IMG/VR virus record: IMGVR_UViG_2690316121_000008
Location: 1-31,188 of that record
From: a virus
Lineage: Duplodnaviria > Heunggongvirae > Uroviricota > Caudoviricetes
Length of the DNA stretch: 31,188 bases
Direction: 5' to 3' (one strand)
A program made the translations under genes and the position numbers. Of the stretch, positions 14,524-15,400 are shown in pieces (position 1 is the first letter of the stretch; every line of letters begins with the position of its first letter). The notes below the pieces were generated by a model. It did not search any database. It was given only the letters and a program-made list of their open reading frames with translations, and was not told the DNA's origin.

Positions 14524-14527
14524 TTCA

Positions 14528-15079
14528 ATGACACAAAACTATGAACTGATTGTGAAAGGGATCCGCAATTTTGAGAATAAAGTTGTGGTAACTGTAGCAT
14601 TACGGGACAAAAAACGCTTTGACGGTGAAATTTTTGATCTGGACATCTCGCTGGACCGTGTTGAAGGTGCCGCGCTGGAGGTTTATGAGGCAGCAGCCAG
14701 AAGGAGCATCAGACAGGTCTTCCTGGATGTTGCTGCCGGGTTATGTGAAGGGGATGAGCTGTCGCCGGAAAAGCGTCCCGTAATTTTAGAGGCGCAGAAT
14801 GTGTGGATAACCTACAAAGGAAAGCTACCGGGAAGAATTACTGGTTCTCTGAAGACGCCACCGACGGCATTGCGGTCAGAAAAAGATGATATTGAATCGC
14901 CCATTGAAAAACTGGAGGGCAGAGTCGCTGATCTGAATAAAAAATTGTCGGTGCTGATCCCTTCTGAAGATGAAAAAAAACGCCGCGATGAGCAGTTTGC
15001 GGCGTTTTACGATTATTGCATTGAGGTTACTCGCAGGAATTTTGTGAAGATTTTTGAGGAGGGTAAATCTCTTCAGTAA
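14528..15079 (+). CDS. Hypothetical protein (183 aa, charged, predicted helical) inserted between holin and endolysin
   Basis: ATG 5 nt after the holin stop (translational coupling); no recognisable catalytic motif; 3' end overlaps the convergent minus-strand ORF by 53 nt. Confidence 0.5.
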   Translation: MTQNYELIVKGIRNFENKVVVTVALRDKKRFDGEIFDLDISLDRVEGAALEVYEAAARRSIRQVFLDVAAGLCEGDELSPEKRPVILEAQNVWITYKGKLPGRITGSLKTPPTALRSEKDDIESPIEKLEGRVADLNKKLSVLIPSEDEKKRRDEQFAAFYDYCIEVTRRNFVKIFEEGKSLQ

Positions 15080-15287
15080 GCTTAATGGCGGACGCTGCAA
15101 TTAATTCAGGAAGATCCGCAAGGTCATCTGTCAGTGGATATGATGAAAAATCGGCGGCAGTTCTGTTAAGAAGCGCTTTAACTAATTCCTTTTCTTTCTC
15201 CGGCAACAAGTTGATTAGAGCTACGACTGCTTGCCTGAGTGCGATTAAATCAGCAAAAGTTTGTTTTGGTAGATTTGTGTAATCCAT
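15027..15287 (-). CDS. Hypothetical small acidic protein (86 aa), antisense to the late operon
   Basis: ATG at 15287 preceded by GAGGTG at ~4 nt; plausible composition; the ORF track's longer version (to 15410) lacks a ribosome-binding site; overlaps the 3' end of 14528..15079 convergently. Confidence 0.4.
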   Translation of the reverse strand: MDYTNLPKQTFADLIALRQAVVALINLLPEKEKELVKALLNRTAADFSSYPLTDDLADLPELIAASAIKLTEEIYPPQKSSQNSCE

Positions 15288-15400
15288 AGTCACCTCTGTG
15301 TTTATCAGATTGACATCCTCCTCCCGCCAGTGCCCATCACTGGCGAGGTAAGATTTAACATATCCGGGGATTTGAAGCCGATAAATCCTGATAAATATCC

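What the first reader, a model, noticed from the sequence alone, without database searches (positions are those of the whole stretch)
14524..15400. Lysis cassette split by an 877-bp insertion carrying two convergent, overlapping unknown genes
The pinholin (14308-14523) and SAR endolysin (15401-15934) normally sit back to back in phage 21-type cassettes. Here a 183-aa charged protein is translationally coupled to the holin, and an 86-aa acidic protein with its own good ribosome-binding site is encoded on the opposite strand against late transcription, with 53 nt of 3' overlap. I recognise no catalytic motif in either. Such a position is known to host lysis-timing regulators or morons (I recall ydfR sitting between essQ and rrrQ in K-12 Qin), but the antisense partner and the overlap are not explained by that. 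Candidates: lysis-timing or antiholin-type control, a toxin/antitoxin-like pair, or a late-expressed defence or exclusion module.
Basis: partly seen in the sequence, partly recalled or inferred. Interest (0 to 1): 0.65.

Follow-up and report, generated by a model that had tools for sequence, protein, structure and literature searches.

The report
Antisense moron gene inside prophage lysis cassette
Between the holin and endolysin genes of this E. coli prophage sits a YdfR-family late gene fused to a small coiled-coil tail, and facing it a real, conserved 86-residue gene of unknown function; the tail and the opposite-strand gene share DNA and travel together in Escherichia, Shigella and Salmonella prophages.

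Summary
In detail: both ORFs, the 53-nt 3' overlap and the ribosome-binding sites are at the stated coordinates.

- **ORF-A (183 aa)** is not an unknown protein. Residues 1-112 are a YdfR/DUF1327 domain (Pfam E 9e-41), the usual occupant of this slot. It is fused to a ~70-aa helical tail, "X", which is a free-standing late gene in other prophages.
- **ORF-B (86 aa, minus strand)** is a genuine gene. It has three diverged lineages, dN/dS of 0.20-0.34, and is the only stop-free frame.
- **Signals around ORF-B** are promoter-like hexamers, a 5' stem-loop, a Shine-Dalgarno sequence, and a hairpin followed by eight U. That hairpin is written inside X's codons (E-K-K-R-R-D-E-Q-F-A-A-F).
- **X's tail and B always co-occur.** Together they form a low-GC module of about 0.5 kb. 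It is absent from short-YdfR cassettes and is also found after Rz in Salmonella prophages.

B most likely behaves as an antisense moron: transcribed in the lysogen and silenced by head-on late transcription. This is inferred, not shown.

The parts
14308..14523 (+). S21-type class II holin (pinholin) with dual start MKSM. Context gene that marks the left edge of the slot.
   Evidence: Pfam PF04971, E 6.7e-34. PGAP annotates it as essD.
14528..15079 (+). ORF-A, 183 aa: an in-frame fusion of a YdfR/DUF1327 domain and the tail X. A late gene placed in the translational-coupling position after the holin.
   Evidence: ORF and sequence. Matches phrog_2091 over its full length, E 9e-109, 'unknown function'. 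The homologue set is a mosaic of lengths: 104-116, 169-211, 268 and 296 aa.
14528..14863 (+). DUF1327/YdfR domain (aa 1-112). Predicted as three beta strands plus a helix (aa 4-72), followed by a disordered linker.
   Evidence: Pfam PF07041, E 9.3e-41, aa 1-112. The AlphaFold2 model has pLDDT 60-83 for aa 4-66 and below 50 for aa 67-125. This stretch is 96% identical in DNA to the 116-aa short YdfR locus L011, up to position 14863.
14864..15079 (+). Tail X (aa 113-183): a charged helical hairpin with a heptad-like first helix. In other prophages it is a free-standing late gene of 67-73 aa.
   Evidence: Predicted helices at 123-143 and 147-182. Standalone X occurs in L060/L063 (67 aa, same SD and position after the holin) and in Salmonella L064/L014 (73 aa, start overlapping the Rz stop as ATGA). 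It matches phrog_36381 and phrog_15975. Within-lineage dN/dS is 0.45.
15027..15287 (-). ORF-B, 86 aa: acidic (pI 4.6), soluble, predicted three-helix protein. Conserved gene of unknown function (phrog_2572, WP_001306174.1).
   Evidence: ORF. Exhaustive HMMER and profile searches found only Escherichia, Shigella and Salmonella prophage relatives, in three lineages. dN/dS is 0.20-0.34 and this is the only stop-free frame. AlphaFold2 gives three helices, mean pLDDT 69. It is present in 314 of 5426 complete E. coli genomes, including CFT073, S88 and HS.
15027..15079 (.). The 53-nt segment coded on both strands: the last 17 codons of X and the last 17 codons of B.
   Evidence: Coordinates. The overlap is 53 nt in all 51 lineage-1 loci and 59 nt in all 13 loci of lineages 2 and 3.
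14973..15008 (-). Terminator-like hairpin for B, 19 nt past its stop: AAAACGCCGC, a 12-nt loop, GCGGCGUUUU, then four more U. It lies inside X codons E-K-K-R-R-D-E-Q-F-A-A-F.
   Evidence: Read directly from the sequence. Fold -16.3 kcal/mol, z -2.7. The hairpin is kept in all three lineages: 92% of cells paired, with one compensatory G-C to A-U change, two wobbles and one mismatch. Covariation is not significant against shuffles. The simple terminator scan missed it because its loop limit is 8.
15357..15385 (-). Promoter-like element for B: -35 TTTATC (15380-15385), a 17-nt spacer, -10 TATGTT (15357-15362).
   Evidence: Only 7 of 12 positions match consensus, so it falls below the scan threshold. 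The hexamers and the 17-nt spacing are kept across lineages 1-3 and in the gp06 locus, while the spacer varies. Variable columns are 2 of 12 in the hexamers against 14 of 17 in the spacer (Fisher p 7e-4). Not tested experimentally.
15322..15348 (-). GC-rich stem-loop at the predicted 5' end of the B transcript: CCUCGCCAGUG, AUGGG, CACUGGCGGG.
   Evidence: The 72-nt leader folds at -29.4 kcal/mol, z -5.3, with 0 of 200 shuffles as stable. It is present in the lineage-1 variants and in Stx2 phage 86. The equivalent folds in lineages 2 and 3 are not significant.
15401..15934 (+). SAR-type endolysin (rrrQ-like). Context gene that marks the right edge of the slot. The B promoter block abuts its start codon.
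   Evidence: Pfam PF00959, E 1.1e-24. PGAP annotation.

Best explanation
The spacer holds three things.

1. A YdfR/DUF1327 late gene, which is the ordinary tenant of the slot between the S21-type holin and the endolysin.
2. A ~70-aa coiled-coil tail, X, fused in frame to it. X is a separate late gene in other prophages.
3. ORF-B on the opposite strand: an autonomous small transcription unit with promoter-like hexamers next to the endolysin start, a 5' stem-loop, a Shine-Dalgarno sequence, an 86-aa ORF, and a hairpin followed by eight U.

B's 3' end and hairpin occupy the same DNA as X's last ~35 codons. X's tail and B are therefore inherited as one low-GC module of about 0.43-0.5 kb. This module has moved between two positions in late operons.

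**Inferred operation.** B behaves as an antisense moron. It is transcribed from its own promoter in the lysogen. It is shut off after induction, when Q-antiterminated late transcription runs head-on through it and yields RNA complementary to all of the B mRNA. At the same time, YdfR-X is made together with holin and endolysin. The two products would then be expressed reciprocally.

**What B does.** B is a soluble, acidic, three-helix protein with no recognisable catalytic or membrane feature. I favour a lysogen-phase role that benefits the prophage or host, possibly as an antagonist of X, over a direct role in lysis.

**Shown versus inferred.** Gene reality, module structure, co-inheritance and sequence signals are shown. 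Promoter activity, timing of expression and protein function are inferred.
For: - **B is a real gene.** It has three lineages at 41-57% identity, between-lineage dN/dS of 0.20-0.34, and the only stop-free frame.
- **Present or absent between the same neighbours.** Short-YdfR cassettes (L011, L004) lack about 510 bp, window 14864-15374.
- **The module occurs without DUF1327 and in another position.** L060/L063 have it without the domain. Salmonella L064/L014 have it after Rz/Rz1 and before the Nu1-like terminase.
- **The overlap is constant.** It is 53 or 59 nt in all intact loci, and B was never found without the X tail.
- **Promoter hexamers are conserved while the spacer is not** (p 7e-4).
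- **The same upstream block drives a different gene elsewhere.** In Stx2 phage 86 it precedes the unrelated antisense ORF gp06 in the same slot.
- **Leader stem-loop:** z -5.3.
- **Hairpin plus U8 just past the B stop,** kept in all lineages.
- **Distinct composition.** Module GC is about 0.41, against 0.50-0.54 in the flanks.
- **Compatible with a working lytic cycle.** The module is carried in complete genome records of temperate phages: 2H10, PhiR63_1, PhiR5_1 and PhiR12_x.
- **Late transcription must cross B.** The endolysin, Rz, terminase and structural genes all lie downstream on the plus strand. This step rests on the established lambdoid pR'/Q model.
Against: - The promoter is weak (7 of 12 consensus positions) and was not found by the consensus scan.
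- Its -35 hexamer lies in a block that may be conserved for endolysin translation initiation rather than for B.
- The U-tract after the hairpin is degenerate in lineages 2 and 3, and covariation is not significant.
- The 5' stem-loop is significant only in lineage 1.
- No transcript or protein data exist for B.
- A common allele has lost the B start codon (ATG to ACG: L006, L007, L028, L029, L032), and two copies are truncated or frameshifted (L061, L062). B is therefore dispensable in at least some prophages.
Confidence: 0.55

Rival explanations
1. X and B are a functional antagonist pair. X (alone or as YdfR-X) is a late effector acting on lysis timing, RNA decay or the host. B binds and neutralises it in the lysogen or early in infection. 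Convergent transcription sets the ratio between them, giving a toxin/antitoxin-like or checkpoint switch.
For: - Co-occurrence is strict across three lineages and two genomic positions.
- Both are small helical proteins: a three-helix bundle and a helical hairpin.
- X has been fused to two different YdfR types (the window type and the Qin type, L068-L072), suggesting that X works with YdfR.
- K-12 YdfR is reported to bind the catalytic half of RNase E and to co-purify with RNA (PMC13232886).
Against: - The physical overlap of B's 3' end and terminator with X already explains the co-occurrence.
- X evolves fast and is barely alignable between lineages outside the hairpin-encoding motif (dN 0.86-1.25).
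- B-null alleles (ACG start) keep an intact X ORF.
- B and X alleles are reshuffled within lineage 1.
- There is no similarity to any toxin or antitoxin family.
- In the cited paper, overproducing K-12 YdfR was not toxic.
- A complex prediction could not be run.
Confidence: 0.2
2. The minus-strand transcript is the effector. It acts as an antisense RNA that pairs with the late mRNA between ydfR-X and the endolysin gene and directs RNase III cleavage. This would uncouple or tune holin versus endolysin/Rz expression. The ORF would be secondary.
For: - The B transcript is complementary, by construction, to the late mRNA segment 14973-15350.
- Structured 5' and 3' ends are typical of stable antisense RNAs.
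- Lambdoid precedents exist for 3'-overlap antisense control: lambda oop/cII and sib (my own knowledge, not tested here).
Against: - Selection acts at the protein level. dN/dS is 0.20-0.34 with dS above 1, in-frame indels are tolerated, and a strong SD is kept in all lineages.
- In Salmonella the module is not next to an endolysin or holin junction.
- During the lytic cycle the late transcript should vastly outnumber B RNA.
Confidence: 0.1
3. B, alone or with X, is a new prophage-encoded defence, superinfection-exclusion or anti-defence factor.
For: - It has moron anatomy and a patchy distribution (5.8% of complete E. coli genomes).
- It is small and acidic.
- The slot accepts alternative antisense cargo, such as gp06 in Stx2 phage 86.
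- The B profile gives a weak collinear match to anti-CRISPR AcrIIC4 (E 0.2).
Against: - No PADLOC hit.
- E. coli has no type II-C CRISPR system (my own knowledge).
- There is no enzymatic or sensor domain.
Confidence: 0.1
4. ORF-B is a chance antisense ORF or a decaying relic with no function, and the 183-aa ORF is a truncated pseudogene, as PGAP labels it.
For: - PGAP marks the YdfR gene as 'incomplete, missing C-terminus'.
- Some B copies have lost the start codon or are truncated.
- Some annotations omit B altogether.
Against: - B shows purifying selection and exclusive frame openness over three lineages.
- SD and start are conserved.
- The exact B sequence is seen on at least 1000 contigs.
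- The 183-aa ORF is intact and recurs at full length: phrog_2091, and cluster P0020 with 681 members.
- The PGAP label follows from comparison with the short YdfR model. It does not reflect a lesion in the gene.
Confidence: 0.05

Closest known systems
YdfR (DUF1327, PF07041) of the E. coli K-12 Qin prophage, between essQ and rrrQ
   Same: - ORF-A residues 1-112 match the family model (138 bits).
- It sits in the same position, right after an S21-type holin and before the endolysin.
- The function of the family is still unknown. One 2026 study reports binding to the N-terminal half of RNase E and co-purifying RNA (PMC13232886).
   Different: - K-12 YdfR is 103 aa and has no antisense neighbour.
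- Here the domain carries a 71-aa helical tail that is an independent gene elsewhere, and it faces a convergent gene.
Lambda bor, and morons as defined for HK97/HK022 (own knowledge: Juhala et al. 2000; Barondess and Beckwith 1990)
   Same: - A small gene on the strand opposite to the late operon, beside the lysis genes.
- Present or absent among related phages.
- Carries its own promoter-like and terminator-like signals and a deviant GC content.
- The Salmonella copy occupies the position after Rz, where bor lies in lambda.
   Different: - Bor is a secreted lipoprotein with a known serum-resistance phenotype. B is soluble, unrelated in sequence and of unknown function.
- B's 3' end and terminator are embedded in the coding sequence of a late gene, so it is not a cleanly intergenic insert.
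Lambda oop RNA / cII 3'-overlap antisense control (own knowledge)
   Same: Convergent transcripts in a lambdoid phage overlap the 3' end of a protein-coding gene by about 55 nt. This could create an RNase III substrate.
   Different: - oop is a 77-nt non-coding RNA in the early region.
- Here the antisense transcript encodes a conserved protein and is complementary over its whole length to the late mRNA.
Type I toxin-antitoxin pairs with 3' overlap in Bacillus subtilis prophages, such as txpA/ratA and bsrG/SR4 (own knowledge)
   Same: Convergent arrangement, a 3' overlap of tens of nucleotides, and a prophage location.
   Different: - Those toxins are short hydrophobic membrane peptides and the antitoxin is a non-coding RNA.
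- X is strongly hydrophilic (GRAVY -0.8 to -1.0), and B is a protein under purifying selection.
gp06 of Stx2-converting phage 86 (NC_008464)
   Same: - An antisense ORF in the same slot, between a long YdfR-family protein and the endolysin.
- It is preceded by the same upstream block, with identical hexamers and a related stem-loop.
- Its downstream hairpin lies inside the end of the YdfR-family ORF.
   Different: - The protein is unrelated (no BLASTP alignment) and longer (104 aa).
- It is rare: four phage records.
- There is no coding overlap with the upstream gene.

Membership tests
YdfR / DUF1327 (PF07041) | Match to the family HMM above the gathering threshold | tested here: met
   138.4 bits against a cut-off of 25, E 9.3e-41, aa 1-112 covering model positions 1-92 of 93.
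YdfR / DUF1327 (PF07041) | Located between a class II (S21-type) holin and the endolysin in a lambdoid late operon | tested here: met
   The order is holin PF04971, then ORF-A, then lysozyme PF00959. The same order is seen in L004-L013.
YdfR / DUF1327 (PF07041) | Single-domain protein of about 100-116 aa | tested here: not met
   ORF-A is 183 aa. Residues 113-183 lie outside the model and are an independent gene in L060, L063, L064 and L014. ORF-A is a fusion that contains the domain.
YdfR / DUF1327 (PF07041) | Binds the N-terminal catalytic half of RNase E (reported for K-12 YdfR only) | not testable with these tools
   From the literature only (PMC13232886). The interaction was mapped to residues 1-72, a region conserved in ORF-A.
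Phage moron (independent transcription unit inserted in a late operon) | Present in some phages and absent in close relatives between the same flanking genes | tested here: met
   L011 and L004 lack window 14864-15374, while the flanks are 95-96% identical.
Phage moron (independent transcription unit inserted in a late operon) | Own promoter | tested here: inconclusive
   TTTATC-N17-TATGTT matches only 7 of 12 consensus positions and was missed by the scan. However, the hexamers are conserved while the spacer is not (p 7e-4), and the block is shared with the gp06 locus. No activity data exist.
Phage moron (independent transcription unit inserted in a late operon) | Own terminator | tested here: met
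   On sequence criteria only. A 10-bp stem followed by U8 lies 19 nt after the B stop, and the hairpin is kept in all lineages. The U-tract is degenerate in lineages 2 and 3.
Phage moron (independent transcription unit inserted in a late operon) | Nucleotide composition different from the neighbouring genes | tested here: met
   GC is 0.405-0.44 across 14900-15400, against 0.50-0.545 in the YdfR domain, endolysin and Rz.
Phage moron (independent transcription unit inserted in a late operon) | Expressed from the repressed prophage | not testable with these tools
   No transcript or proteome data were found.
Holin / antiholin-type lysis-timing proteins | At least one transmembrane or SAR-type membrane segment | tested here: not met
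   - The highest Kyte-Doolittle 19-residue window is 0.96 for ORF-A and 0.27 for X.
- For B it is borderline at 1.62. That helix carries invariant D13, R18 and Q19, and its position-independent Hessa sum is +6.6 kcal/mol.
- No holin family matches either protein.
Type II toxin-antitoxin module | Two co-directional genes in one operon, with recognisable toxin or antitoxin folds | tested here: not met
   The genes are convergent. There are no Pfam, NCBIfam or PADLOC toxin or antitoxin hits.
Type I toxin-antitoxin module with 3' overlap | Small hydrophobic membrane toxin plus a non-coding antisense RNA | tested here: not met
   X is hydrophilic (GRAVY -0.81 to -1.03). The antisense partner encodes a protein under purifying selection.
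Known anti-phage defence systems (PADLOC-DB 2.0) | Match to any defence-protein model | tested here: not met
   Zero families at E up to 1 for ORF-A, B, standalone X, P0141 and P0142.
Anti-CRISPR AcrIIC4 | Significant sequence or fold similarity | tested here: not met
   - hmmsearch E 0.19-0.22.
- hhalign probability 5.5% over 25 columns.

The most novel reading that the evidence does not exclude
X and B form a previously undescribed two-protein checkpoint attached to phage lysis cassettes. B, made in the lysogen, sequesters the late coiled-coil protein X or YdfR-X. YdfR-X may act on RNase E or on late-mRNA stability. Head-on late transcription, together with the terminator written inside X's codons, flips the B:X ratio at induction. 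The DNA overlap would then be a built-in timing device rather than an accident of insertion.
Probability: 0.15. Interest if true: 0.65.

Novelty: new member of a known kind. Interest (0 to 1): 0.38.

Why it matters
- **Reach.** The pair occurs in about 6% of complete E. coli genomes, including the reference strains CFT073, S88 and HS. It is also found in Shigella and many Salmonella prophages and in inducible temperate phages. Both proteins are listed only as 'hypothetical' or 'unknown function'.
- **What this work settles.** The opposite-strand gene is real. The co-inherited unit is the X tail plus B, not YdfR plus B. The unit is mobile between late-operon positions.
- **Annotation error.** PGAP calls the intact 183-aa gene a truncated pseudogene.
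- **Experimental handles.** The slot next to the endolysin start codon looks like a small hotspot with a shared antisense promoter and leader that drives alternative cargo genes. The locus also offers a compact case of a terminator hairpin encoded inside a partner gene's conserved amino-acid motif. Both can be tested in standard strains.
- **Link to YdfR.** If B or X turns out to act on YdfR or RNase E, or on lysis timing, the locus would connect an old y-gene to phage biology.

Tried and rejected
- **Weak Pfam hits for B.** DUF1823 (E 0.11) and ABATE (E 0.08) are far below their cut-offs. The 'DUF1823 containing protein' label in the PhiR phage records is therefore not supported.
- **Distant relatives of B.** The exhaustive HMMER and profile searches found none beyond the three enterobacterial lineages. 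A fungal TPR/CHAT repeat protein (P0140, eight stretches) and designed ankyrin proteins match only a short helix motif, which I treat as chance.
- **AcrIIC4 lead.** Rejected.
- **Defence and curated family libraries.** PADLOC and NCBIfam returned nothing.
- **B as a decayed plus-strand coding region.** I tested whether the B region could be a remnant of the 296-aa YdfR form. There is no DNA similarity beyond insert position 495.
- **The 65-aa plus-strand ORF at 15085-15282.** This is the mirror-frame shadow of B and carries stops in other lineages.
- **The 127-aa TTG-start version of B.** The upstream extension is not conserved and has no SD.
- **Covariation in the terminator hairpin.** Only one compensatory pair, not significant.
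- **Rfam.** No known RNA family in the region.
- **Literature.** Nothing was found on DUF1327, the protein accessions or the PHROG identifiers. YdfR appears only in the RNase E interaction paper.
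Full report
**Context.** The window is a lambdoid E. coli prophage. Its order is early region, Q antiterminator (12512-12883), four tRNAs (13247-13556), lysis genes, then terminase, head and tail genes, all on the plus strand. The lysis cassette has an S21-type holin at 14308-14523 (PF04971, E 6.7e-34, with the MKSM dual start) and a SAR-type lysozyme at 15401-15934, followed by Rz.

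**Observation.**
- ORF-A: 14528-15079 (+), 183 aa, ATG 4 nt after the holin stop, behind GGGGAGAG.
- ORF-B: 15027-15287 (-), 86 aa, ATG behind AGAGGTG.
- Overlap: 53 nt.

**ORF-A is a fusion.** Residues 1-112 are a YdfR/DUF1327 domain (E 9.3e-41). This family normally sits in this slot, as in K-12 Qin, mEp460 and many prophages.

The family is a recombination mosaic with interchangeable C-termini:
- 104-116 aa short forms with no antisense gene;
- 169-211 aa forms carrying tail X plus ORF-B;
- 268 and 296 aa forms with a different C-terminal domain.

Against a 116-aa form, the window has about 510 extra bp, at 14864-15374.

AlphaFold2 predicts a three-strand-plus-helix domain (aa 4-72), a disordered linker, and a helical hairpin at 123-182. 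Mean pLDDT is only 56.

PGAP labels this intact gene a pseudogene 'missing C-terminus' because it compares it with the short model.

**ORF-B is a real gene.** A search of 1.84 billion representative proteins and a profile search found only enterobacterial prophage relatives. They fall into three lineages:
- lineage 1: Escherichia and Shigella, 86 aa;
- lineage 2: Salmonella, 93 aa, 49-57% identity;
- lineage 3: E. coli prophages with Qin-type YdfR, 89-93 aa, 38-41% identity.

In the non-overlapping part, between-lineage dN/dS is 0.20-0.34 (dS 0.9-1.8). The B frame has no stops, whereas the other five frames have 1-16 stops, or dN/dS near or above 1. The mirror frame shows the expected shadow signal but is interrupted.

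AlphaFold2 predicts three long helices, mean pLDDT 69. B is acidic (pI 4.6) and is not a membrane protein by the Hessa scale, although one helix is borderline on the Kyte-Doolittle scale.

**The conserved unit is the X tail plus B.** In every intact locus, B converges on and overlaps a plus-strand ORF ending ...K-S/L-x-Q. The overlap is 53 nt in lineage 1 and 59 nt in lineages 2 and 3. That ORF takes three forms:
- YdfR-X fusions, with two different YdfR types;
- a free-standing 67-aa gene directly after the holin, using the same SD as ydfR, with no DUF1327 domain (L060/L063; 393 contigs);
- a free-standing 73-aa gene coupled to Rz by ATGA, lying between Rz/Rz1 and the Nu1-like terminase in Salmonella prophages (L064, L014; more than 900 contigs).

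Between lineages, X is alignable only from the motif E-[KQ]-[KQ]-R-[RH]-[DH]-E...A-[AF] to its end. It evolves much faster than B. In L064 against L014, X has 30 nucleotide differences and B has 6.

**Signals around B.**
- **Terminator-like hairpin.** Nineteen nucleotides after the B stop, on B's strand, lies AAAACGCCGC, a 12-nt loop, GCGGCGUUUU, then four more U (14973-15008). The same DNA encodes X's conserved motif E-K-K-R-R-D-E-Q-F-A-A-F. The hairpin is kept in all lineages, with 92% of cells paired. In lineage 3, RR/AA becomes RHH/VA with one compensatory pair. Covariation is statistically weak, and the U-tract decays in lineages 2 and 3.
- **Promoter-like hexamers.** Upstream of B, TTTATC-N17-TATGTT (15380-15385 and 15357-15362) is kept in position in all lineages; it is TATTGT in Salmonella. 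The spacer diverges: 2 of 12 columns vary in the hexamers against 14 of 17 in the spacer, p 7e-4. The match to consensus is weak, and the scan did not report it.
- **Leader stem-loop.** The predicted leader starts with a strong stem-loop at 15322-15348 (z -5.3).
- **Shared block in another phage.** The same promoter and stem-loop block precedes an unrelated antisense ORF, gp06, in the same slot of Stx2 phage 86.
- **Composition.** The module is AT-richer than its flanks: GC 0.41 against 0.50-0.54.

**Interpretation.** These features fit an antisense moron whose 3' end is written into a small late gene, which is why the two travel together.

All genes downstream of the holin depend on late transcription reading through this region (plus the established lambdoid Q/pR' model). 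B should therefore be expressed in the lysogen and silenced at induction, when YdfR-X is made. Expression timing is inferred, not shown.

**Function remains open.**
- Both proteins are PHROG families of unknown function: phrog_2091 and phrog_2572.
- A weak AcrIIC4 match did not survive testing.
- The only functional lead for the YdfR domain is a 2026 report that K-12 YdfR binds the catalytic half of RNase E and co-purifies with RNA (PMC13232886).

**Evidence against an essential role.**
- A common allele has ACG in place of the B start codon.
- Two copies are truncated or frameshifted.
- The module is nonetheless carried by complete temperate phage genomes.
- It is present in 314 of 5426 complete E. 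coli genomes, including CFT073, S88 and HS.

**Verdict.** This is a new, uncharacterised member of a known kind, a moron in a late operon. Its unusual feature is the dual-coded junction with a partner late gene.

Noticed in passing
L003 (Stx2-converting phage 86, NC_008464) 3443-3885; window 15300-15400: An unrelated 104-aa antisense ORF (gp06) occupies the same slot. It shares B's upstream block, with identical TTTATC-N17-TATGTT and a related stem-loop. Here the stem-loop is followed by UUUUU. This suggests a small moron hotspot with a common antisense promoter and leader next to the endolysin start codon.
   Followed up: partly
window 14528-14863 (PGAP annotation of identical DNA in NZ_AP045067.1 and CFT073 NZ_CP058222.1): PGAP annotates the intact 183-aa ORF as a pseudogene ('YdfR family protein, incomplete, missing C-terminus') covering only aa 1-112. 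This looks like an annotation artefact caused by the short reference model.
   Followed up: yes
L006, L007, L028, L029, L032 (start of the B homologue); L061, L062: A widespread allele, mostly paired with the 176-aa ORF-A form that has a 7-aa deletion in X, has ACG instead of ATG at the B start. Two further copies are truncated or frameshifted. The gene is therefore decaying in some prophages.
   Followed up: partly
L008-L010 (296-aa YdfR form) and L003 2627-3433 (268-aa form): Some YdfR-family proteins carry a different, conserved C-terminal domain of about 120 aa (…PSHQHSEELIEFAIDYLKNNKKQGLMKR…) with no Pfam match. The 296-aa form keeps the first half of X but lacks the KRRDE hairpin arm and has no antisense gene.
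   Followed up: no
window 7948-8024 and 8049-8136 (+): Rfam finds isrK (59 bits) and a C4 antisense RNA (83 bits) side by side in the early region. They overlap the annotated Rha-family regulator gene, in an arrangement resembling the P1/P7-type immunity (antirepressor control) region.
   Followed up: no
window 13247-13556 (+): Four tRNA genes lie between Q and the holin: CAT anticodon (called Met by ARAGORN and Ile by PGAP), Arg-TCT, Thr-TGT and Gly-TCC. About 750 bp with no called gene follows, including a strong terminator-like site at 14151-14169. This is the position where stx genes lie in Stx phages.
   Followed up: no
window 15085-15282 (+): A 65-aa plus-strand ORF is the mirror-frame shadow of ORF-B. 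It shows low apparent dN/dS but carries stops in other lineages, so it is not a gene.
   Followed up: yes
window 15290-15320 (-): In the predicted fold of the B leader, the Shine-Dalgarno AGAGG pairs with an upstream AUCU in a small second hairpin. This could modulate translation.
   Followed up: no
window 16386-16538 (+): A 50-aa hydrophobic ORF overlaps the end of Rz. PGAP annotates it as hypothetical (WP_001139681.1), and it is also called in mEp460. Its function is unknown.
   Followed up: no
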